From assembly GCA_963662465.1 (NCBI GenBank), contig OY759599.1, forward strand, positions 5,888,001 to 5,952,000: a stretch of DNA of 64,000 nucleotides, in the 5' to 3' direction. Both the position numbers and the translations under genes were made by a program. The notes under the pieces were generated by a model. The model had not been told where the DNA came from, ran no database searches, and saw nothing but the letters and a program-made list of their open reading frames with translations. Each line of letters starts with the position of its first letter. Position 1 is the first letter of the stretch. Below are positions 2,783 to 64,000 of the stretch, piece by piece. Source of the DNA: Desulfatiglandales bacterium. Lineage in GTDB: Bacteria > Desulfobacterota > DSM-4660 > Desulfatiglandales > Desulfatiglandaceae.

Positions 2783-4150
2783 AGGGAATTCCCAAGAAAT
2801 AAACTACCCAACTCCAGATTCAATAAGTACATCCCATTTGGGCAGTGTGTCGGAACGTTTAATTCTGTTTTCGTAAGGTTTCATTTCTTTTTTTGTAAGC
2901 CGGATTCCCTTCTTATATGCCTTTTCCACCAACGTGACAATGGGCTTTATCCCTTTCCATGTCATCGTAGATGCCCAATTGACTGCTTTTGATATTGAAT
3001 CCAATATTTCTCCGTTCCAATGTCCCTCCAATATTCCCCAACATCTTTCAACCGGATTGTACTTACTATGATAGGGAGGATAATAAACCAGGCGGATTCG
3101 CAAACCTGTTTTGTCACTGAATTCGGTCATTCTGCGAATGAATTGAGTCCGACCGCTTGCTGAATTCGGACCATTGTCAAGATTGATAACCAACTCGTTT
3201 ATATGAAGATAGGTAATTCTGTTTTTTTCCCACCACATCTCTAAACAGTCAACGATGAAATCACTTGTTTCAAAAGATGTGCCGAAAAAAATAGAAAGCA
3301 TTCCGCTCAAAACGTCAAGAATACCGTACGGAACCAATTTCATTTCGGGATTCATATCATGGTCTTCAGCTTTCTTCGCTTCCCGATCCCGTGACTTTCC
3401 GTTTCTTGAGAACTCGCCTATATTCACTTTTGCCTTGGCATCAATAGAAATCCGATGAGAGTTGGGATTCTCATCAGAGTCACGGTTTGCCTTCCATACA
3501 TTTTCAAATATTTCATCGACCTGTTTTATCTTTTTCGCAGGTTTGGATTTCAGGACTCGTTTCAGGTTGTATCCCATGCGGTTCAACATGTTGATCAGAG
3601 TGTTGTTAGAGGGAAGATCCTCACCGTCGTATCCTTTCTCATCAATCAGTGCCTTTTTGAGAGCTTTTCCTGTAATTCTTGTATATGTGATAGAGCTTTT
3701 CATGGCAGGGTCCGCCTGAGTTTGAGGTTCTGCAAGGGATATTATGTCTGCTTTAATACCGGGAATCGTGTCTTCTGTTTTCTTTTTTCCCCGTCCCTCA
3801 AAATTATCCATGCATCTGATCCCGCTTTCGGCTTCTTTAAGGCCTTTTGTTACACACTCTCTCCCCCATCCCATCTCCCGTTCAGCTTTGTATGCACTCC
3901 CGTTGAAATATTTCCTGGTAATGTCGGCCTGATATGCTCTTCTTTTGTAACCAGTCAGTCGTCTGCATGCATCTTTTATCAGATTTTTTGTTTCTCCGTC
4001 TTGGGCGCTAACCAAAATGGAACCAGTTTTGCTACTCCAAACGGAACCAGATATTGCGCACTGGTCTTTTCCTTTTAGAAGGGTTTTCTTGTAAATTTGT
4101 TAGAGGTTGCATGAAAGAGTATATCAGATGGTATTTTAAAAATGCTGGTG
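2781..4150 (-). mobile_element. ISAzo13-family insertion sequence; upstream terminal repeat appears truncated
   Basis: End TAAGGGAATTCCCAAGAAATAAACTACC at 2781 abuts the transposase stop. No matching full inverted copy found near 4150. Confidence 0.7.
2804..4015 (-). CDS. ISAzo13 family DDE transposase
   Basis: Motifs ISIDAKAKVNIGEFSRNG, INLDNGP, YYPPYHSKYNPVERCWG. Confidence 0.93.
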   Translation of the reverse strand: MVSAQDGETKNLIKDACRRLTGYKRRAYQADITRKYFNGSAYKAEREMGWGRECVTKGLKEAESGIRCMDNFEGRGKKKTEDTIPGIKADIISLAEPQTQADPAMKSSITYTRITGKALKKALIDEKGYDGEDLPSNNTLINMLNRMGYNLKRVLKSKPAKKIKQVDEIFENVWKANRDSDENPNSHRISIDAKAKVNIGEFSRNGKSRDREAKKAEDHDMNPEMKLVPYGILDVLSGMLSIFFGTSFETSDFIVDCLEMWWEKNRITYLHINELVINLDNGPNSASGRTQFIRRMTEFSDKTGLRIRLVYYPPYHSKYNPVERCWGILEGHWNGEILDSISKAVNWASTMTWKGIKPIVTLVEKAYKKGIRLTKKEMKPYENRIKRSDTLPKWDVLIESGVG

Positions 4151-4260
4151 AGACACGTAGCGTTCTGGTTGAAGAATCAGTGATGAGGATACCATCAATA
4201 TGGTGATGGCAGAGAAGAGGGGATTAGATTTTTCGGTTAAGGGCAATGCTTATTGAGGAA

Positions 4261-4470
4261 CTATTTGTCTATGTCATAGTCGTCCGGTAAATTCAGGAGG
4301 CCTCCCTTCGCCAATTGATCCTCAATCAAATATCCAATTTCCCCGTTTTTTTTCAGCTGTAGAATCATCCATTTGGGGAGACGAATGGTGAGCAGTTCAC
4401 GTCTCAAATGTTCCGGTTTCTTTCTTCGGCCGGCGCCTACCCGTTTTCCACCTCTCATTTCAAGCTCCAA
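4261..4470 (-). CDS. Small putative DNA-binding protein (RGGxRxGAGR motif plus RHH-like segment)
   Basis: Paralog of 1556..1762; co-oriented just downstream of istB. Confidence 0.75.
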   Translation of the reverse strand: MELEMRGGKRVGAGRRKKPEHLRRELLTIRLPKWMILQLKKNGEIGYLIEDQLAKGGLLNLPDDYDIDK

Positions 4471-4556
4471 GACAAGGTAATTTCTGATATTCGTGTAACG
4501 AGATTCAAACAGACCGGTGATATTCAGACCTCAAAACCGGCCCTTTGGCGAACATC

Positions 4557-5276
4557 TCATTTTCTGAGGGAAGGACCATCAATATGAATGTTGATGCAGC
4601 GATGGTTGAGACGATCCAGCAAGGCATCGACCATGTCCTTTGGTTCAAGCAGCGAATACCATTGTTCAGGTTGAAGATTGGTCGTAATAATTGTGGACCG
4701 ACCGGCTTCATAGCGATCTTTCATGAGTTTAAAAAAGGCGTTCATCTGCTCTTTTTTGAGGGTCAGGTATCCCAGTTCATCGAGCAGAAGCAGGTCATAT
4801 CTGCAAAGGGCATTGAGGAGTTTCGGGGTGGACCGATCTGCCAAAGACGCATAGAGCTGATCCAGCAAATCCTGAACATTATAAAAACGCCCCCGGTACC
4901 CGGCAATAATGGCTTGACGAAGGATCCCCACGGCCAATCCCGTTTTGCCGACGCCGGTTTTTCCATGGAACACGATGTTTTCTCTTCGGCTGATAAAGTC
5001 AAGGCCGGACAACGTCATGATCCGGCTCTTCTGTATTCCCGGCTGAAGATCAAACGGAAAGGAGTTGAGGGTCCATTCCCATGGAAGCTTTGCAATCTGG
5101 ACCCGATAGATCATGCTGCGCTCCTGCCGGAAACGTAATTCCTCAGCCAGGAGATTGTAGATGACCTCGTGAATGGAAAAACCGTTCTTTTCAGCCGAAG
5201 CCAACTGTTCTTCGAGAGCCTTCAGCATGCCTTTAAACTTCAAATCAATGAGTAACTGTTCAATTTTCTTTTTCAT
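4557..5276 (-). CDS. istB: IS21 helper AAA+ ATPase IstB
   Basis: Walker A GKTGVGKT, Walker B LLLLDELG, STIITTN, ALLDRL, GPSLR. ATGA overlap with istA. Confidence 0.95.
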   Translation of the reverse strand: MKKKIEQLLIDLKFKGMLKALEEQLASAEKNGFSIHEVIYNLLAEELRFRQERSMIYRVQIAKLPWEWTLNSFPFDLQPGIQKSRIMTLSGLDFISRRENIVFHGKTGVGKTGLAVGILRQAIIAGYRGRFYNVQDLLDQLYASLADRSTPKLLNALCRYDLLLLDELGYLTLKKEQMNAFFKLMKDRYEAGRSTIITTNLQPEQWYSLLEPKDMVDALLDRLNHRCINIHIDGPSLRK

Positions 5277-6655
5277 AGATCAAAAAAGTCTCCCGCGATA
5301 TAATCGAGAATAATGTTTTCCAGACGCGACAAATCAAAAAGTCCATATTTAAGCGCCTGTGTTATGGCTTTCAAAAAAGGTTCCCCGGGATAAGTGCGTT
5401 TCAGATGAAGCAACCGACGTAACTTGACCACACCGCGACCGTGACTTCTTTTCTTCAGTTCAGCCACATACTCATCCAGGATGGCATCCTCTCCCGTCAA
5501 CAGCTGTTCTTCTTTTGAAGGGATTCGGGGATCTTTTTTTCTTCGAATGGGAACATGGTGACCGGGCAGGGTTGTTCGGGTGTTGCGTTTATCCAGTATG
5601 CGGTCATGTTCCGCCACTTTTGTGTTTTTGTCGTAAACGATGACCTTGAGCCAATGTTTCTGTACTTCCAGGGAGTTCCCAATCAGCGCTTCAGGGACTG
5701 AATAGCGGTTGGTGTCCAAGTGCACATATCCCTGAACATCGGCTACCCTGTGTTCTGCCACATAGACTGGCGGCTGGTATGCCGGTAAATCAATGAGATA
5801 TGGCTTTTCAATGACATAGGCCTCATCCGGCGTCATCCCTAAAGCCCGTTTAAACTTTTTATCGCTTGTATTCCGGCACCAGTCGATTGCCTGCCGGTTC
5901 AAATCCTGCCAGCTAACAAATGTTCTACCGGGAAGAAAATTGTTTTCCACAAAATGAAAAGGCCTTTCCACACGAGCACTTCGATTGGCGTCTCCTACAG
6001 CATGGGCCTCAAACCGGGTTCCATACATATCGCCGAAGTATTTCATTTCAGGCGCAATCAATGCATCAGGCCCGGTGCCGCCGGCCACAATAACATTGGT
6101 GTTGTCAACCATGCACCGGGAACACACCCCGTCCATAAACTCGAATGCTTTTTTTAGGAAAACCTTGCACTCAAACCGGGTAAAACAGGGGTAATACTGA
6201 ATAAAAATCCTTCGGCAAAAGGCCAGGGTCAGGGACGCGCACTGGGTCGACATTTTTTTCCCATTAATGACAACCAGATGGGGTGACGTATCATGCTGCA
6301 TCTCCTGACCGGGTTTAAAATGGTATTGGCCCGCCCGTCTTTTTTTACGTTCCCGGATCTCGTACTTTCTCATAATCCAGGTCAGACTCTGATAAGGGAT
6401 TTTGATCTGTTGGCGGCTTTCCAGTTCCTCGGCTACTCGCACGGCATTTCCTTTACATTCCTTGAAAAGCTCGCGGATCAACGGGACATGTTCTTCATAC
6501 CGGGAGTTCCTTTGGGGTACCGCCTCTTCGTCATGATCATCTAAAACCTTCGTGACGGTATTGCGACCGGCCTTCAGGGTTTTGGCGATGTCGCGCAAAC
6601 TCATGCCGGTTTTTTTCAATTCCACAATGGCATCTTTTTTGGATTGTCGGATCAT
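5273..6655 (-). CDS. istA: IS21 family transposase IstA
   Basis: N-terminal HTH; DDE motifs PGQEMQHD, VDNT, RVERPF; NRYSVP. Confidence 0.95.
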   Translation of the reverse strand: MIRQSKKDAIVELKKTGMSLRDIAKTLKAGRNTVTKVLDDHDEEAVPQRNSRYEEHVPLIRELFKECKGNAVRVAEELESRQQIKIPYQSLTWIMRKYEIRERKKRRAGQYHFKPGQEMQHDTSPHLVVINGKKMSTQCASLTLAFCRRIFIQYYPCFTRFECKVFLKKAFEFMDGVCSRCMVDNTNVIVAGGTGPDALIAPEMKYFGDMYGTRFEAHAVGDANRSARVERPFHFVENNFLPGRTFVSWQDLNRQAIDWCRNTSDKKFKRALGMTPDEAYVIEKPYLIDLPAYQPPVYVAEHRVADVQGYVHLDTNRYSVPEALIGNSLEVQKHWLKVIVYDKNTKVAEHDRILDKRNTRTTLPGHHVPIRRKKDPRIPSKEEQLLTGEDAILDEYVAELKKRSHGRGVVKLRRLLHLKRTYPGEPFLKAITQALKYGLFDLSRLENIILDYIAGDFFDL

Positions 6656-7536
6656 AATTGGGTCGCTTTCTTGAGTTCCAGTGCTTGTTTTTCTATCTTT
6701 TTCACCCAGGTTTTGAGCGTTTGTTTCTTCAACTGATCGCTTTTTGGGTAATGGACATGCGAAACGGTTTTCACCAGACGTTTGAGAACCGCATATACCA
6801 TTTCAATATCCTTGAACCATTTGCCTTCCGGTCCATCATGAACTTCTTTGGCTTGTTTAGACTGGGTTCTTTGTTCGAGAACTTTTATGAAAAGGGATGG
6901 ATTTTCCAGCATGTGGTCTCGAACAGACCGGTTGCTTTTCTGGTAATGTGCGTAGAAACGGGCCAGTTCCCTTGTGGATAGAGGTTCTTTTTCCAGGTGG
7001 GCCAACAGTTTTTGTGCGTCTTCACCGTTGGCGCGCGCCAACGGCGCCATGACATGGCTGGCAGCCCAGGTTGAAAGTGAGCCTGCAATCACGGTTCTCA
7101 AAATATTTTCCGGCAGGGCTTCAACCAGGTCCAGCCGCCGTTTTACAAAACTCTTGTCGCGCCCTATTCGGGTTGCAATATGGGAGAGGCTGCACCCAAA
7201 ACGCCGATGTAATTCCTGAAGTAAAACAGACTGCTCAATGACTTCCCATTGCCGTTCATTGGCCTTGGTTAAAAGCGAAAACATGGCATTTTGTTCGTTT
7301 TCTTTTGAGAATTGGACACATATCCGGTCCTTTCCACAAGCACAAAGCGCTCGAACACGCAGGTAGCCATCAATCAGAATCAGTTTGTCTTTTTCTTCAA
7401 TAGCCAGGGCCGGAACGATCTGCCCGTAAGTTTCGATGGAATCCCTCAATCGCTTTAAAGCCTGGTGATTCATTATCCGGCAATGAGCGTAACGCAACTC
7501 CAGCAAATGAATATCAACGGTTCGGATGGATTCCAT
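6652..7536 (-). CDS. ParB/RepB/Spo0J-like protein (ParB N-terminal domain plus HTH)
   Basis: LRDSIETYGQIVP...LIDGYLRVRA, then HTH SLSHIATRIGRDKSFVKRRL. Stop overlaps the istA start. Confidence 0.9.
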   Translation of the reverse strand: MESIRTVDIHLLELRYAHCRIMNHQALKRLRDSIETYGQIVPALAIEEKDKLILIDGYLRVRALCACGKDRICVQFSKENEQNAMFSLLTKANERQWEVIEQSVLLQELHRRFGCSLSHIATRIGRDKSFVKRRLDLVEALPENILRTVIAGSLSTWAASHVMAPLARANGEDAQKLLAHLEKEPLSTRELARFYAHYQKSNRSVRDHMLENPSLFIKVLEQRTQSKQAKEVHDGPEGKWFKDIEMVYAVLKRLVKTVSHVHYPKSDQLKKQTLKTWVKKIEKQALELKKATQL

Positions 7537-7933
7537 ACCCAGTCTCCCGAAAGATTTCCTCTATGGTTTCTCCAAGACTGACCCAATTTCCTTGCCGGAT
7601 CTCCTTTACCTGTTTCACAATCACAGGACGTCTGGGAAGCGAAAGAACCTGAAACAGACGGCCATCAAACCCAATCAGATCCTTGTCCAACAAGCCATCG
7701 CGGGCATCGATATATTGATCCAAATGCACCTTTAAAATCCGGCAGATTCTGTCGTAACCATAATAAGAGAGCCCGTTTTTGTCAGATACCAACACCAGAA
7801 AAATGTAGAGCAGCAGCTCATGATGATTCAGGCTCTCCCAAAAGCCGTTTCTCAAAAAACGATGCTCCAGAAAGCCGAAGCTTCCATTGATGACACGCAC
7901 TCTTTCGGGAAAAAGGACTCTTTTTTTGATCAT
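7514..7933 (-). CDS. Winged-helix-like hypothetical protein of the IS21 element
   Basis: ELLLYIFL..SDKNGLSYYGYDRIC..L.......ARDGLLDKDLI resembles a replication-initiator-type wHTH. AGGAG RBS; identical in both copies. Confidence 0.7.
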   Translation of the reverse strand: MIKKRVLFPERVRVINGSFGFLEHRFLRNGFWESLNHHELLLYIFLVLVSDKNGLSYYGYDRICRILKVHLDQYIDARDGLLDKDLIGFDGRLFQVLSLPRRPVIVKQVKEIRQGNWVSLGETIEEIFRETGYGIHPNR

Positions 7934-7945
7934 TTTTTTCTCCTG

Positions 7946-8389
7946 TCATGGATATGGGGTTTTCTCAAAGCCTGTTACATCTGAAAAAACCCTCCCTGCA
8001 TAAGCACGGCGAGGAAAATGGTCCACAACAACCCCGATCGACCCGCAAAAAAGACAGCTGGGTCGGTTCCCCGACCGCTTTTTGGGTTCAATATCACAGT
8101 CTTTTTGAGGTGTTGAACTATCATCACCAGGGTTCAGTCCATTTTTTTTGGATTTTTTTGTTTTTTCGTACAAACGACGGCGCTCTTTCCCTTTTTTCGA
8201 ATTGCGGTATTTCCCCTGAGCTTTCCGGTGCAGCTGTCTTTGGCGTATCCTGCGACATCGTTCCCCACAATAGGCCTGGCCACGCCAACACGACCGACAG
8301 ACGTGAAAAAAGCAACCACAACATCGGCATTGAACCACTCTTAAAAGGACATCTCCCATCATTCCGGCCTTGCAATTGGCCGGAAACAC
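7946..8389 (-). CDS. Cys-rich, basic putative Zn-binding protein of the IS21 element (true start may be the internal MMG)
   Basis: CRCCG...CRSC...YCGERC, a basic region, then CLFCG. Present in both copies. Confidence 0.7.
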   Translation of the reverse strand: MFPANCKAGMMGDVLLRVVQCRCCGCFFHVCRSCWRGQAYCGERCRRIRQRQLHRKAQGKYRNSKKGKERRRLYEKTKKSKKNGLNPGDDSSTPQKDCDIEPKKRSGNRPSCLFCGSIGVVVDHFPRRAYAGRVFSDVTGFEKTPYP

Positions 8390-8438
8390 ACTTATATAAA
8401 ATTGGCGTGTGTGTGGCTTCCGGCTCTATCCGGTGGTC

Positions 8439-8474
8439 AAAAAAGAAGGCCCGAAGCGGCTACTTCGGGCCTTC
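8439..8474 (-). terminator. Intrinsic terminator in the IS21 leader (copy 1)
   Basis: 12-bp stem GAAGGCCCGAAG/CTTCGGGCCTTC followed by T6 on the coding strand. Confidence 0.75.
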
Positions 8475-8725
8475 ACCATCCATTCTACAAAGTAAATCGC
8501 ATTTCCACTTAACCAAGCCTCTGTCTTGGAAGAAGAAAACCAAATCCAAAGAAAATAGATTTTATAAAAATTTATTGAAAAGTAAATCTACATCAACGAC
8601 TCCTTTGCCGCCACTTATGGATCCCTCATCGTCCGCTATACCTGAGGGCCGTACTCACCGGCGGTGACAGCCAATGGTTCAATTTCCATTAGCAAACTTG
8701 GTTCAGTTTTGATTAGCGTTGAAGC

Positions 8726-9946
8726 AAGAAGCTGGATAATGAACTTGCAGGGGGACAAATCCGCGGCTGTCTGCACGGCGTTCCTATGACCATCAAGGAC
8801 AATTTGGATACCCGAGACTTTGTGACCACGGGAGGGACCAAAGGCAGAAAAGATTTTGTCCCCGAAAGGGATGCTACGGTGGTTGCCAGGTTGCGTGCGG
8901 AAGGGGCTGTTTTGATGGGAAAAACCAATACGCCTGAGTTGACCCTGGCTTTTGAAACAGACAATCTCATTTACGGTCGGACCAACAATCCCTATGATCT
9001 TTCACGAACCAGCGGCGGCAGCAGCGGCGGCGCAGCGGCTATTATCGCGGCTGGAGGGTCCCCCTTTGATATCGGCAGCGATACGGGCGGCAGTATCCGT
9101 TTGCCTTCCCATTTTTGCGGCATTACCGGGATTCGGCCAACATCGGGCCGGGTTCCGAGAACGGGTCATATTCTGCCGCCCGGCGGCGTTATGGATGCGT
9201 GGACCCAGATTGGTCCAATGGCGCGATACGTCGAAGACCTGGCCCTGATTCTGCCTGCCATTTCCGGAATCGACTGGCATGATCCCGCAATTGTTCCCAT
9301 GGTCATGGGTGATCCCAACGATGTTGATTTAAAGGGGCTGCGTGTGGCATACCACACGGATAACGGGATCATGAGTCCTACTTCAGAAATCAAATCCGCT
9401 GTGGAATCGGCTGCCAAGGCACTCAACGACGCGGGCGTACACGTTGTTGAAGCGCATCCTTCCGGCATTGACCAAACCTTTGAACTGTTCATGGGATTGA
9501 TGGTAGGCGATGGGGGCGCCGGCATCCAAATGCTCCTTCAGTTGTACGGTACGGATGAACCCCATCCTTGGTTACAGGGGATGATCGCTCAAGCTGAGGA
9601 AAGCCGGATGACAACGGCGGAATATTGCGGATTGCTGTTCAAGCTTGACCTTTTCCGCAGTCAGATGCTCTCATTCATGGAATCCTGGGACGTTATAATC
9701 TGTCCCGTCAATGCTTTAACGGCAATGCCACATGGCACCCTTTCCGAACAATTACCGAGCGTTTCCTATACCTGCACTTATAATCTGACCGGTTGGCCAG
9801 CGGCCGTAGTCCGGGTCGGAGGAACTGCGGAAGGTTTGCCCATCGGGGTACAGGTGGTTGCACGCCCTTGGCGCGAAGATGTTGCATTGAAAGTGGCGCG
9901 ATTCCTGGAAAACCAATTCGGTGGATGGGTAAAACCGGAAATTTAG
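8726..9946 (+). pseudogene. Amidase-signature family enzyme, main body; 5' end separated by IS insertions
   Basis: Frame resumes at the IS end: KKLDNELAGGQIRGCLHGVPMTIKDN, with GGSSGG and GSDTGGSIR. Confidence 0.88.
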
Positions 9947-61503: not shown

Positions 61504-62040
61504 AAGGTCGCAAGCCAGTTCAAATGGGTCGCAAATAGGTCGCAAATGATCCACCACGCATTTTTCCAGGAAGATCGTCAGCCAAACGTCAAAATTAGTC
61601 TTTCCAAGGGACCACCACGGCACGTTCAGTCTTGAAACGGGGCAAGGTCGCGAGGGGAAAAATCCTGTCCAAGTTTCAGATTACGCTTCAAACCATTTCA
61701 TATCTTCGGGGGAATTCCGATCTGACCAGAGCGCTATATGGGATGGCATCGCTGAAAAAGCGACCAGGATGAGCGCTTCGTCTCCCACCGCTTCAACGCT
61801 AATCAAAACTGAACCAAGTTTGCTAATGGAAATTGAACCATTGGCTGTCACCGCCGGTGAGTACGGCCCTCAGGTATAGCGGACGATGAGGGATCCATAA
61901 GTGGCGGCAAAGGAGTCGTTGATGTAGATTTACTTTTCAATAAATTTTTATAAAATCTATTTTCTTTGGATTTGGTTTTCTTCTTCCAAGACAGAGGCTT
62001 GGTTAAGTGGAAATGCGATTTACTTTGTAGAATGGATGGT

Positions 62041-62076
62041 GAAGGCCCGAAGTAGCCGCTTCGGGCCTTCTTTTTT
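62041..62076 (+). terminator. Intrinsic terminator in the IS21 leader (copy 2)
   Basis: GAAGGCCCGAAG-TAGCCG-CTTCGGGCCTTC-TTTTTT. Confidence 0.75.
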
Positions 62077-62125
62077 GACCACCGGATAGAGCCGGAAGCC
62101 ACACACACGCCAATTTTATATAAGT

Positions 62126-62569
62126 GTGTTTCCGGCCAATTGCAAGGCTGGAATGATGGGAGATGTCCTTTTAAGAGTGGTTCAATGCCGATGTTGTGGT
62201 TGCTTTTTTCACGTCTGTCGGTCGTGTTGGCGTGGCCAGGCCTATTGTGGGGAACGATGTCGCAGGATACGCCAAAGACAGCTGCACCGGAAAGCTCAGG
62301 GGAAATACCGCAATTCGAAAAAAGGGAAAGAGCGCCGTCGTTTGTACGAAAAAACAAAAAAATCCAAAAAAAATGGACTGAACCCTGGTGATGATAGTTC
62401 AACACCTCAAAAAGACTGTGATATTGAACCCAAAAAGCGGTCGGGGAACCGACCCAGCTGTCTTTTTTGCGGGTCGATCGGGGTTGTTGTGGACCATTTT
62501 CCTCGCCGTGCTTATGCAGGGAGGGTTTTTTCAGATGTAACAGGCTTTGAGAAAACCCCATATCCATGA
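62126..62569 (+). CDS. Cys-rich putative Zn-binding protein (IS21 copy 2)
   Basis: Protein identical to 7946..8389. Confidence 0.7.
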   Translation: MFPANCKAGMMGDVLLRVVQCRCCGCFFHVCRSCWRGQAYCGERCRRIRQRQLHRKAQGKYRNSKKGKERRRLYEKTKKSKKNGLNPGDDSSTPQKDCDIEPKKRSGNRPSCLFCGSIGVVVDHFPRRAYAGRVFSDVTGFEKTPYP

Positions 62570-62581
62570 CAGGAGAAAAAA

Positions 62582-63001
62582 ATGATCAAAAAAAGAGTCC
62601 TTTTTCCCGAAAGAGTGCGTGTCATCAATGGAAGCTTCGGCTTTCTGGAGCATCGTTTTTTGAGAAACGGCTTTTGGGAGAGCCTGAATCATCATGAGCT
62701 GCTGCTCTACATTTTTCTGGTGTTGGTATCTGACAAAAACGGGCTCTCTTATTATGGTTACGACAGAATCTGCCGGATTTTAAAGGTGCATTTGGATCAA
62801 TATATCGATGCCCGCGATGGCTTGTTGGACAAGGATCTGATTGGGTTTGATGGCCGTCTGTTTCAGGTTCTTTCGCTTCCCAGACGTCCTGTGATTGTGA
62901 AACAGGTAAAGGAGATCCGGCAAGGAAATTGGGTCAGTCTTGGAGAAACCATAGAGGAAATCTTTCGGGAGACTGGGTATGGAATCCATCCGAACCGTTG
63001 A
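62582..63001 (+). CDS. Winged-helix-like hypothetical protein (IS21 copy 2)
   Basis: Protein identical to 7514..7933. Confidence 0.7.
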   Translation: MIKKRVLFPERVRVINGSFGFLEHRFLRNGFWESLNHHELLLYIFLVLVSDKNGLSYYGYDRICRILKVHLDQYIDARDGLLDKDLIGFDGRLFQVLSLPRRPVIVKQVKEIRQGNWVSLGETIEEIFRETGYGIHPNR

Positions 63002-63863
63002 TATTCATTTGCTGGAGTTGCGTTACGCTCATTGCCGGATAATGAATCACCAGGCTTTAAAGCGATTGAGGGATTCCATCGAAACTTACGGGCAGATCGT
63101 TCCGGCCCTGGCTATTGAAGAAAAAGACAAACTGATTCTGATTGATGGCTACCTGCGTGTTCGAGCGCTTTGTGCTTGTGGAAAGGACCGGATATGTGTC
63201 CAATTCTCAAAAGAAAACGAACAAAATGCCATGTTTTCGCTTTTAACCAAGGCCAATGAACGGCAATGGGAAGTCATTGAGCAGTCTGTTTTACTTCAGG
63301 AATTACATCGGCGTTTTGGGTGCAGCCTCTCCCATATTGCAACCCGAATAGGGCGCGACAAGAGTTTTGTAAAACGGCGGCTGGACCTGGTTGAAGCCCT
63401 GCCGGAAAATATTTTGAGAACCGTGATTGCAGGCTCACTTTCAACCTGGGCTGCCAGCCGTGTCATGGCGCCGTTGGCGCGCGCCAACGGTGAAGACGCA
63501 CAAAAACTGTTGGCCCACCTGGAAAAAGAACCTCTATCCACAAGGGAACTGGCCCGTTTCTACGCACATTACCAGAAAAGCAACCGGTCTGTTCGAGACC
63601 ACATGCTGGAAAATCCATCCCTTTTCATAAAAGTTCTCGAACAAAGAACCCAGTCTAAACAAGCCAAAGAAGTTCATGATGGACCGGAAGGCAAATGGTT
63701 CAAGGATATTGAAATGGCATATGCGGTTCTCAAACGTCTGGTGAAAACCGTTTCGCATGTCCATTACCCAAAAAGCGATCAGTTGAAGAAACAAACGCTC
63801 AAAACCTGGGTGAAAAAGATAGAAAAACAAGCACTGGAACTCAAGAAAGCGACCCAATTATGA
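62979..63863 (+). CDS. ParB-like protein (IS21 copy 2)
   Basis: Differs from copy 1 at two residues (ASHVM/ASRVM, EMVYA/EMAYA). Confidence 0.9.
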   Translation: MESIRTVDIHLLELRYAHCRIMNHQALKRLRDSIETYGQIVPALAIEEKDKLILIDGYLRVRALCACGKDRICVQFSKENEQNAMFSLLTKANERQWEVIEQSVLLQELHRRFGCSLSHIATRIGRDKSFVKRRLDLVEALPENILRTVIAGSLSTWAASRVMAPLARANGEDAQKLLAHLEKEPLSTRELARFYAHYQKSNRSVRDHMLENPSLFIKVLEQRTQSKQAKEVHDGPEGKWFKDIEMAYAVLKRLVKTVSHVHYPKSDQLKKQTLKTWVKKIEKQALELKKATQL

Positions 63864-64000
63864 TCCGACAATCCAAAAAAGATGCCATTGTGGAATTGAA
63901 AAAAACCGGCATGAGTTTGCGCGACATCGCCAAAACCCTGAAGGCCGGTCGCAATACCGTCACGAAGGTTTTAGATGATCATGACGAAGAGGCGGTACCC
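63860..64000 (+). CDS. istA: IstA N-terminus (partial, window edge)
   Basis: MIRQSKKDAIVELKKTGMSLRDIAK..., as in copy 1. Confidence 0.92.
   Translation, partial: MIRQSKKDAIVELKKTGMSLRDIAKTLKAGRNTVTKVLDDHDEEAVP

What the first reader, a model, noticed from the sequence alone, without database searches (positions are those of the whole stretch)
4150..8726. IS21-family transposon with a translationally coupled Zn-finger / wHTH / ParB module inside its ends
Seen: three extra genes (Cys-rich, wHTH-like, ParB-like with HTH) lie between the left end (TG...GCTAAT..AA.TGAACC x2) and istA. They form one operon: wHTH overlaps parB, parB overlaps istA by ATGA, and istA overlaps istB by ATGA. The same block, starting at the same end, recurs at 61789, so these genes move with the element. 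Known: canonical IS21 elements encode only IstA and IstB and can form circular intermediates; ParB-family proteins are CTP-dependent DNA clamps. Inference: the coupling suggests a functional module rather than passive cargo. It could act in target selection or immunity, in transpososome loading, or in maintaining the excised circle via a Rep-like wHTH plus ParB. I do not know of a characterised example.
Basis: partly seen in the sequence, partly recalled or inferred. Interest (0 to 1): 0.85.

Follow-up and report, generated by a model that had tools for sequence, protein, structure and literature searches.

The report
Transposon with built-in ParB loading site
This is an active, many-copy jumping gene of the IS21 type that carries its own ParB DNA-clamp protein and, hidden inside that gene, a short palindrome that even gene-less miniature copies keep, which suggests the clamp is part of how the element jumps rather than cargo.

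Summary
The element is 4,725 bp (8724-4000), ends CT...AG rather than TG...CA, makes 5-8 bp (mostly 7-8) target duplications, and has 25 paired copies in the genome. The stable core in relatives is Zn-finger, ParB, IstA, IstB; the wHTH gene is optional (12 of 73). ParB is confined to one IstA clade and co-diverges with it.

New here: a 16-bp perfect palindrome inside parB (7027-7042). It is the only stretch of parB/istA/istB with frozen synonymous sites. It sits at the same place in 74 of 75 relatives and is replaced by another palindrome in a divergent subclade. Three 257-386 bp MITEs keep both ends and this site but no recognisable element gene. ParB keeps most nucleotide-binding residues but lacks the hydrolysis glutamates and a ParA partner.

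Best reading (0.55): a private ParB/parS-like pair acting in cis to license or assemble the transpososome. A covarying leader suggests antisense control. Binding is not shown. No published description was found in ten searches, and ISfinder could not be searched. The scan noted the gene layout before in other genomes; a search of its notes for the palindrome or MITEs returned nothing.

The parts
4000..8724 (-). Whole element, 4,725 bp, termini 5'-CTT...AAG-3'; 25 paired copies in the genome, target duplication 5-8 bp (17 of 19 are 7-8 bp)
8675..8724 (-). Left terminal inverted repeat with two direct repeats 24 bp apart (L1/L2; IstA sites by analogy to IS21)
   Evidence: L1/L2 role from PMC10122671
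8445..8474 (-). Conserved GC-rich hairpin followed by a U run in the leader (terminator/attenuator-like; usable from both strands in relatives)
   Evidence: 4 of 11 pairs change on both sides
8370..8398 (+). Putative antisense sigma70-like promoter (-35 at 8370-8375, 17-bp spacer, weak -10 in this copy; good -10 in 8 of 11 leaders)
   Evidence: not listed by the consensus scan
8405..8480 (+). Putative small antisense RNA ending at the leader hairpin (inferred, not observed)
   Evidence: no Rfam match
8362..8385 (-). Hairpin that covers the ribosome-binding region and first base of the probable orfZ start; its 5' arm can instead pair upstream (switch-like)
   Evidence: 5 of 8 pairs change on both sides
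7946..8362 (-). orfZ: Cys-rich zinc-finger plus basic helix protein, subtype Z1 (open frame extends to 8389); family of no Pfam name, 1,742 cluster representatives at E<=1e-10
7514..7933 (-). Winged-helix protein (HTH_36-like); nearest solved folds are plasmid RepA_N and DnaB N-terminal domains, tied with generic wHTH; optional in relatives
6652..7536 (-). Orphan ParB: N-terminal ParB fold, HTH, helical C-terminus; no ParA-binding motif; hydrolysis glutamates replaced
7027..7042 (.). 16-bp perfect palindrome GTTGGCGCGCGCCAAC inside parB (20 bp perfect in this copy, 7025-7044): parS-like cis site, also kept in MITEs
5273..6655 (-). IstA DDE transposase (D122, D184, E230 invariant in 33 relatives)
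4557..5276 (-). IstB AAA+ helper ATPase
4261..4470 (-). orf69: small basic protein, sporadic passenger shared with other elements in this genome
4000..4050 (+). Right terminal inverted repeat with two direct repeats 24 bp apart (R1/R2)
61791..64000 (+). Second copy (runs off the window); 7-bp target duplication, left copy at 61784-61790

Best explanation
An IS21-type transposon (IstA + IstB) of a distinct CT...AG-ended clade that has domesticated a ParB together with its own parS-like loading site.

Shown: the element moves, and ParB is a fixed, co-evolving partner of this IstA clade. A 16-bp palindrome inside parB is under DNA-level selection, and non-autonomous derivatives keep it.

Inferred: the ParB dimer binds the palindrome through its HTH, probably closes as a nucleotide-gated, slowly or non-hydrolysing clamp, and acts in cis on the donor element. 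It marks the donor and helps IstA find or pair the two ends (1.7 and 3.0 kb away) or licenses the transpososome, much as Mu uses an internal enhancer (recalled).

Also inferred: the Zn-finger (with or without wHTH) is an exchangeable regulatory head. In this subtype a leader with a terminator, a start-codon hairpin and a probable antisense RNA throttles the translationally coupled operon as copy number rises.
For: ParB partner of IstA: IstA lies directly downstream in 61 of 63 ParB loci. In the IstA tree, 41 of 42 tips of one clade (support 0.93) carry ParB, and the 42nd has 2 bp of upstream DNA; 0 of 16 tips outside the clade carry it. The trees are congruent (19 of 22 strong splits, 0 conflicts) and parB overlaps istA in 38 of 40.

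The site in autonomous elements: excess synonymous identity is 0.87 at parB codons 165-170, against next-best windows of 0.23 (parB), 0.35 (istA) and 0.20 (istB). The palindrome centre is the same in 74 of 75 distinct parB segments. There are two-sided variants in L118 and L129, and a different perfect 16-mer at the same place in the 31%-identical subclade L042/L148, whose HTH also differs. A perfect 16-mer occurs in 25 of 39 ParB elements and 1 of 15 ParB-less IS21 elements.

The site outside parB: it lies within 350 bp of a family end in 4 of 6 cellular and 1 of 22 viral-contig hits, against a background of 2e-4 per window. Three of these are MITEs of 257, 278 and 386 bp with 5-6 bp target duplications. 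One of them was also recovered by an end-first scan.

The protein: the model matches ParB/Noc/Spo0J structures (E 3e-10). It keeps equivalents of S74, G79, R104 and R139 but not E102 or E135. In Caulobacter, loss of E102 leaves a clamp that binds CTP but does not hydrolyse it (PMC8367383).
Against: No binding or transposition experiment exists, and the binder of the site is inferred from position and co-occurrence. Two of the three MITEs were found through the site itself, so site-less MITEs were barely sampled. Two weak short end-pairs without target duplication lack the site, and one right end in G450 (L275) has none nearby. In both G099 MITEs the palindrome is extended to 42 bp, which could reflect hairpin selection or an inverted-duplication origin. 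The R103 equivalent is lost (L59) and N136 is kept in only 85 of 161, so CTP binding may have decayed; nucleotide specificity cannot be predicted from sequence (bioRxiv 10.1101/2025.10.10.680097). Most ParB-clade loci were ascertained with a ParB query. The 31-36% IstA hits L154 (broken) and L133 lack ParB, and a distant ParB (L183) lacks the palindrome. Canonical IS21 integrates with IstA and IstB alone (PMC10122671).
Confidence: 0.55

Rival explanations
1. ParB and its site are only an autoregulatory device. ParB loads inside its own gene and spreads to repress or roadblock the operon (KorB/VirB-like, recalled), limiting transposition at high copy number.
For: The site lies just upstream of istA in a coupled operon. 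Orphan ParBs without a ParA motif are common on mobile elements. There are 25 copies to control.
Against: MITEs of 257-386 bp have no recognisable element gene to regulate, yet keep the site between their ends. The leader already offers a separate control device.
Confidence: 0.14
2. Target immunity or self-marking: ParB clamps spreading from the site keep IstB off the element and its neighbourhood.
For: IS21 immunity is suggested but unexplained (PMC11208146). No copy is inserted in another, and the smallest gap between copies is 24.8 kb.
Against: The spacing is not significant (P=0.11), and self-insertions are too rare by chance among 25 copies to be informative. A 260-bp MITE is a negligible target and gains little from immunity.
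Confidence: 0.11
3. Mini-replicon: the excised circle is replicated by the RepA_N/DnaD-like wHTH with IstB as loader (primase domains in relatives) and kept or segregated by ParB on the site.
For: The best wHTH structural hits are the staphylococcal RepA N-terminal domain (Z 8.3, rmsd 3.6, 86 aligned) and the DnaB N-terminal domain (Z 7.4, 90 aligned). Related elements carry CHC2 or full primase domains. Z2 genes carry iteron-like repeats 81 bp apart. One Zn-finger gene precedes a TrfA initiator. The leader resembles plasmid counter-transcript control (recalled).
Against: wHTH is absent from 61 of 73 ParB loci, and generic wHTH proteins score within 1 Z unit. There is no ParA in the element and no ParA-binding motif in 161 ParBs. 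The window's subtype has no iteron array. ParB has no hit in PLSDB at 1e-8.
Confidence: 0.1
4. The palindrome is real but is read by something else (IstA, IstB, the Zn-finger, a host factor) or as an RNA hairpin, and ParB has a separate role.
For: It can fold as a 6-bp stem with a 4-nt loop, and it is extended to 42 bp in two MITEs. The binder has not been shown.
Against: The central bases are as invariant as the arms. ParB-less elements with the same Zn-finger/wHTH head lack the site. Its length and symmetry match ParB-family operators (recalled), and it changes together with the ParB HTH in one independent contrast.
Confidence: 0.08
5. Passive cargo captured once by an ordinary IS21.
For: orf69 and wHTH are sporadic.
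Against: Purifying selection, tree congruence and conserved overlap, and a conserved cis site kept in MITEs.
Confidence: 0.02

Closest known systems
IS21 family (IS21, IS5376): IstA + IstB
   Same: DDE IstA (profile hit to IS5376 IstA, PDB 8b4h, E 3.9e-31), IstB above the curated cut-off, two direct repeats in each terminal repeat, istA/istB coupling, short target duplications.
   Different: Described as two ORFs with a terminal CA (PMC10122671 passages). Here there are 4-6 ORFs, terminal AG (or GG), an IstA below the NCBIfam IS21 cut-off (129 versus 160 bits), a dedicated ParB and an internal palindromic cis site.
ParABS partition systems (Spo0J/ParB-parS) and orphan ParBs (Noc, KorB, VirB, PadC)
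   Same: ParB fold plus HTH, GxxR motif invariant in 161 sequences, and a cognate-looking 16-bp palindrome.
   Different: No ParA and no ParA-binding motif; catalytic glutamates E102/E135 replaced; a single site inside the parB gene; lives in a transposon. The 2025 survey of the ParB-CTPase fold has no occurrence of 'transpos' or 'IS21' in its main text (supplements closed).
Phage Mu (MuA/MuB with internal enhancer and strong gyrase site)
   Same: Homologous transposase/AAA+ pair. An internal cis site that helps pair distant ends is the closest working analogy (recalled, not tested).
   Different: Mu's enhancer is read by MuA's own N-terminal domain and its central site by host gyrase (recalled). 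Here the candidate reader is an element-encoded ParB clamp.
Tn7-like elements with target selectors (TnsD/TniQ, TnsE, TnsF, CAST)
   Same: Extra element-encoded DNA-binding proteins in one operon with transposase and AAA+ ATPase. PMC10293859 states IS21 has not been reported with a target selector (passage).
   Different: No target specificity seen: no consensus at 19 sites, no replication-strand bias (16 of 27), no proximity to site-like sequences.
Antisense-controlled leaders (IS10 RNA-OUT; repABC and IncI/IncB counter-transcripts)
   Same: Outward promoter overlapping the start region of the first gene, a short RNA ending in a terminator, and an alternative hairpin over the start; the comparison is recalled.
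   Different: No Rfam match. It controls a Zn-finger gene at the head of a coupled operon, is found only in the Z1 subtype, and the RNA has not been observed.

Membership tests
IS21 family (canonical) | DDE transposase IstA | tested here: met
   D122/D184/E230 invariant in 33; NF033546 E 1.9e-37 but 129 bits, under the 160 cut-off; IS5376 IstA E 3.9e-31
IS21 family (canonical) | AAA+ helper IstB directly downstream | tested here: met
   PF01695 200.6 bits; NF038214 225 bits, over the 200 cut-off
IS21 family (canonical) | Terminal inverted repeats with two internal direct repeats | tested here: met
   24-bp-spaced pairs at both ends
IS21 family (canonical) | Terminal CA dinucleotide | tested here: not met
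   All 26+26 ends read CTT/AAG; relatives CT..AG or CC..GG, fixed by target duplications in L008, L033, L058, L124, L043. Filed as an IS21-type subgroup, not canonical IS21.
IS21 family (canonical) | Only two ORFs | tested here: not met
   Six ORFs here; four-gene core in relatives
IS21 family (canonical) | Short target-site duplication | tested here: met
   19 of 25 paired copies: 9x7, 8x8, 1x6, 1x5 bp
IS21 family (canonical) | Circular or tandem intermediate with abutted ends | tested here: inconclusive
   No junction in 270 loci plus the genome or in contigs of four runs; contigs drop rare forms
ParABS partition system | ParB N-terminal fold plus HTH | tested here: met
   AF2 model pLDDT 85.9; Foldseek E 3e-10 to Myxococcus ParB, Noc, Spo0J; profile E 7.7e-15 to 6sdk
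ParABS partition system | CTP-binding residues (Caulobacter R60, S74, G79, R103, R104, N136, R139) | tested here: inconclusive
   S33 157/161, G38 157/161, R60 161/161, R95 155/161, R20 160/161 (one residue off the QPR arginine in the alignment); R103 equivalent lost; N136 equivalent 85/161 and Ala here
ParABS partition system | CTP-hydrolysis residues (E102, E135) | tested here: not met
   E102 position Y/F/H in 161 of 161; E135 position E in 5 of 161
ParABS partition system | Palindromic parS-type site | tested here: met
   Conserved 16-bp palindrome by sequence criteria; binding itself untested
ParABS partition system | ParA partner and ParA-binding motif | tested here: not met
   No ParA ORF in the element; motif in 0 of 161 N-termini
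ParABS partition system | Nucleotide-gated loading and sliding | not testable with these tools
   Needs biochemistry
Plasmid/phage replicon (RepA_N or DnaD-type initiator with iterons) | Initiator-type winged helix | tested here: inconclusive
   Top hit 4pta Z 8.3, tied within 1 with CRP/MarR-type wHTH; Foldseek E 0.017
Plasmid/phage replicon (RepA_N or DnaD-type initiator with iterons) | Iteron array in this element | tested here: not met
   No array in 4000-8724 beyond the terminal repeats; the Z2 repeat is absent at up to 3 mismatches
Tn7-like target-selecting transposons | Specific or replication-linked target choice | tested here: not met
   No target consensus, 16 of 27 co-oriented (p=0.44), no proximity to degenerate sites (P 0.35-0.43)

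The most novel reading that the evidence does not exclude
A class of DDE transposons in which an element-encoded ParB clamp, loaded at a parS-like site hidden in its own gene, is a required fourth component of transposition (with IstA, IstB and the ends). It slides or bridges from the site to license and pair only those ends that lie on the same molecule, so that any DNA with two ends plus the 16-mer becomes mobilisable. This would be a use of the ParB/CTP switch in DNA recombination rather than segregation or transcription.
Probability: 0.42. Interest if true: 0.93.

Novelty: new variant of a known kind. Interest (0 to 1): 0.82.

Why it matters
IS21 is the minimal model for AAA+-assisted transposition (IstA + IstB), and how such elements choose and pair cognate ends, act in cis, or gain immunity is open (PMC11208146). 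A natural clade with a dedicated ParB, a defined 16-bp site and 260-bp MITEs gives a ready-made, small test system. It would extend ParB-type nucleotide clamps to a new job, and it offers an orthogonal ParB/site pair (two specificities seen) and a compact cargo-delivery design. The element also matters locally: 25 copies, about 120 kb, with signs of recombination between copies in this genome.

Tried and rejected
Complex prediction of ParB with IstA+IstB: no verdict (score 0.15, mark 0.32); not used either way.

Circle or tandem junction: none in contigs of runs X1, X3, X7, X8 or in 270 loci plus the genome; contigs cannot show absence. RNA run X7 covers 28 of 30 bins, but contigs cannot show strand, starts or expression, so the antisense RNA stays unobserved.

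Target immunity from spacing: not significant.

Library searches: Rfam gave nothing near a gathering score. PHROGs, Pfam and NCBIfam name neither orfZ nor orf69; the ESM Atlas gives only unnamed or HTH_36 clusters for orfZ and wHTH. ParB has no hit in PLSDB. The sigma70 scan did not list the antisense promoter. 21 of 22 viral-contig hits and 2 of 6 cellular non-parB hits of the 16-mer (L205, L260) have no family end nearby and are treated as chance.

Rejected readings: TG...CA ends (flank); the three genes as one fixed module (wHTH optional, Zn-finger subtype swaps); the Z2 81-bp repeats as part of this element (absent). No left end was found for the lone right end at G000:3733252.

Literature: ten searches found no description. 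Two candidate papers used ParB and IS21 in unrelated contexts (passages). ISfinder/TnCentral and most subscription papers could not be searched.

Full report
Observation. The five ORFs and their junctions are as described, but the borders differ. Comparing all copies in the single-contig 8.16-Mb genome gives a 4,725-bp element, window 8724-4000, starting CTT and ending AAG. There are 26 left and 26 right ends, 25 of them paired. Nineteen of the 25 have target duplications (9 of 7 bp, 8 of 8 bp, one each of 6 and 5). Copies without indels differ by 0-7 SNPs, and one run shows depth 1143 on the element against 48 on a flank, so it is recently active. A sixth, 69-aa ORF lies inside the right end. 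IstA and IstB are IS21-type, but IstA is under the curated IS21 cut-off, and the terminal dinucleotide is AG, not the CA described for IS21 (PMC10122671, passages seen). CT..AG or CC..GG ends with 7-8 bp duplications recur in relatives, including a 5,028-bp second element in this genome whose IstA is only 31% identical.

What is conserved. ParB has 956 homologues at E<=0.001, and most of the 120 listed sit on 1-5 kb contigs. Of the best 80 metagenome loci kept from 516, IstA follows directly in 61 of 63 with at least 400 bp downstream. A Zn-finger gene precedes ParB in 67 of 73 loci with enough upstream DNA, and a wHTH gene in only 12 of 73. Searching from IstA instead, all six genomes returned by the species collection have ParB upstream in at least one locus; the planctomycete and archaeal MAG hits are on 3-4 kb contigs and may be misbinned. 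In 401 genomes of the phylum, IstA hits at 50-55% and two loci at 31% carry ParB. L154 (32%, broken) and L133 do not, L132 has no upstream DNA, and none of 14 hits at 22-27% does, although 9 of those 14 carry the Zn-finger and/or wHTH gene. In a tree of 58 IstA sequences, ParB is confined to one clade (41 of 42 tips, support 0.93; 0 of 16 outside); most of these tips were found with ParB. The ParB and IstA trees share 19 of 22 strong splits with no conflict. parB overlaps istA in 38 of 40 elements (17 by ATGA), and dN/dS against close relatives is 0.14-0.33 for orfZ, wHTH and parB. So ParB is the fixed partner, and the Zn-finger/wHTH head is exchangeable. It comes in several subtypes and also precedes an integrase-core transposase, a Y1 transposase and a TrfA initiator, in line with an earlier scan note.

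The hidden site. A scan for frozen synonymous positions over 38 parB, 39 istA and 31 istB genes gave one outlier: parB codons 165-170, with excess identity 0.87 against next-best windows of 0.23, 0.35 and 0.20 (the wHTH set was too small to score). It is the palindrome GTTGGCGCGCGCCAAC at 7027-7042. The best palindrome centre falls on the same base in 74 of 75 distinct parB segments; the distant ParB of L183 is the exception and the broken L131 could not be scored. L118 and L129 change it on both sides. The divergent subclade has other perfect 16-mers at the same place (L042, L148), along with a changed recognition helix. A perfect 16-mer is present in 25 of 39 ParB elements and 1 of 15 ParB-less ones. 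The genome has 26 exact copies, 25 in elements and one alone, where 0.001 is expected; the lone one is non-coding and 256 bp inside a family-type right end.

Miniature copies keep the site. Pattern searches of 401 and 209 genomes and of the viral contigs gave 6 cellular and 22 viral-contig sites outside parB among the loci fetched. An end profile trained only on autonomous elements finds a family end within 350 bp for 4 of the 6 and 1 of the 22, against 2 in 10,000 random windows. Three are complete MITEs with both ends, target duplications and no recognisable element gene: L207 (257 bp, 6 bp), L210 (278 bp, 6 bp; weak left end) and L238 (386 bp, 5 bp). The host of the first two also holds a broken Zn-finger-ParB element. 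In the full element the site is 1.7 and 3.0 kb from the ends, so keeping it in a MITE needs selection. Against this: two of the three MITEs were found through the site. The end-first scans were small, with 2 viral hits, one being the same MITE, and no new MITE in 209 genomes. Two weak end-pairs without duplications lack the site, and the two G099 MITEs extend it to 42 bp.

The proteins. The ParB model (pLDDT 85.9) matches Myxococcus ParB, Noc, Spo0J and KorB. On an alignment of 161 sequences mapped through Bacillus and Myxococcus ParB, it keeps the equivalents of Caulobacter S74, G79, R104 and R139, and probably R60. It loses R103 and both hydrolysis glutamates, E102 and E135, and has no ParA-binding motif. 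PMC8367383 (passages seen) shows that E102A binds CTP and clamps DNA without hydrolysing it, so a long-lived clamp is plausible. The 2025 survey (passages and section 6 seen, supplements closed) warns that nucleotide specificity cannot be read from sequence. The wHTH model's best matches are plasmid RepA_N and DnaB N-terminal domains, tied with generic winged helices. orfZ is a four-cysteine zinc finger with a basic helix, a large family without a Pfam name; its likeness to treble-clef DNA-binding fingers is recalled, not tested.

The leader. Ten Z1-type leaders share a GC-rich hairpin and a second hairpin over the start region. Nine of 19 pairs change on both sides, 0 of 500 shuffles reach this, and slid controls are lower; the structure was chosen by eye from these sequences. 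On the other strand a TTG(C/A)AA box is followed by a good -10 in 8 of 11 leaders, weak in this copy, which would give a 70-90 nt antisense RNA ending at the hairpin. This is inference: Rfam has no match and no raw RNA reads were available. The commoner Z2 subtype has instead two direct repeats 81 bp apart inside the gene (39 of 48 spacings), absent from this element.

Mechanism. Shown: mobility, the fixed ParB-IstA link, selection on a DNA palindrome, and its retention in gene-less derivatives. Inferred (0.55): ParB binds the site and acts on the donor in cis to license or pair the ends for IstA/IstB, with the head cassette setting expression. Autoregulation (0.14) and immunity (0.11) do not explain the MITEs. 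A circle replicon (0.10) lacks ParA, iterons and, usually, the wHTH. Target selection has no support from 19-27 insertion sites. The Mu enhancer, IS10 RNA-OUT, counter-transcript and KorB/VirB comparisons are recalled.

Novelty. Papers describe IS21 as two ORFs without a target selector (PMC10293859, passage) and leave its immunity open (PMC11208146, passages). Ten searches found no account of this layout; ISfinder and most subscription journals were out of reach. Earlier scan notes report the four- and five-gene layouts in other genomes. These are not independent support; a search of the notes for the palindrome or MITEs returned nothing. Verdict: a real, undescribed variant of IS21-type transposition with a specific, testable mechanism; interest 0.82.

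Noticed in passing
window 2804-3999 and 8725-9946: This copy has no target duplication: its right end truncates an ISAzo13 transposase (intact flank seen at four other places) and its left end truncates an amidase gene, so it marks a deletion or rearrangement.
   Followed up: partly
G000:C1:5347739 and 6067428: The left flank of one copy matches the right flank of another by 7 bp, as expected after recombination between oppositely oriented copies.
   Followed up: no
L043:2974-8001 (G000:8094473-8099500) and L042: Second, divergent element (5,028 bp, 7-bp duplication, CT..AG ends): Zn-finger, ParB, IstA, IstB, CHC2 primase zinc domain, orf69, with its own 16-bp palindrome; two copies.
   Followed up: yes
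L042:7738-11777; L047; G000:7836042: A third IS21-type element has IstA fused to a CHC2+Toprim primase (901 aa), followed by two orf69 genes and IstB; three copies, one inserted in the second element.
   Followed up: partly
Z2-type genes, e.g. L089:519-965, L134:413-850: Two direct DNA repeats exactly 81 bp apart with fixed synonymous positions inside the Zn-finger gene; other subtypes (L135, L150) have different triple repeats.
   Followed up: partly
L195, L201/L202, L204: The Zn-finger gene also precedes an excisionase-like HTH plus TrfA initiator, an integrase-core transposase and a Y1 transposase.
   Followed up: partly
L217:5982-6253 (G000:3732981-3733252): A lone right end with the palindrome lies next to a very large DEAD-box/PD-(D/E)XK/AAA helicase-nuclease gene; no left end was found.
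   Followed up: partly
G000:C1:3458440-3458702 and 1868081-1868172: Orphan pieces of the leader (76% and 94% identical), the first with the terminator hairpin but without the element's end or genes.
   Followed up: no
L044:3145-3528, L045:3664-4056: Two stand-alone wHTH homologues (58-63%) elsewhere in the genome without ParB or IstA nearby.
   Followed up: no
G000:C1:1533098, 5974616, 6833271: Two copies carry the same 1.9-kb insertion at the orfZ start and one carries a 1.8-kb insertion in parB; the inserted elements were not identified.
   Followed up: no
L009:4446-6440: The right-end 522 bp of a relative is repeated three times in tandem.
   Followed up: no
window 4261-4470: orf69 homologues (65-79%) occur at about 15 other places in the genome, several in other mobile elements, including window ~1570-1760; no family name.
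   Followed up: no
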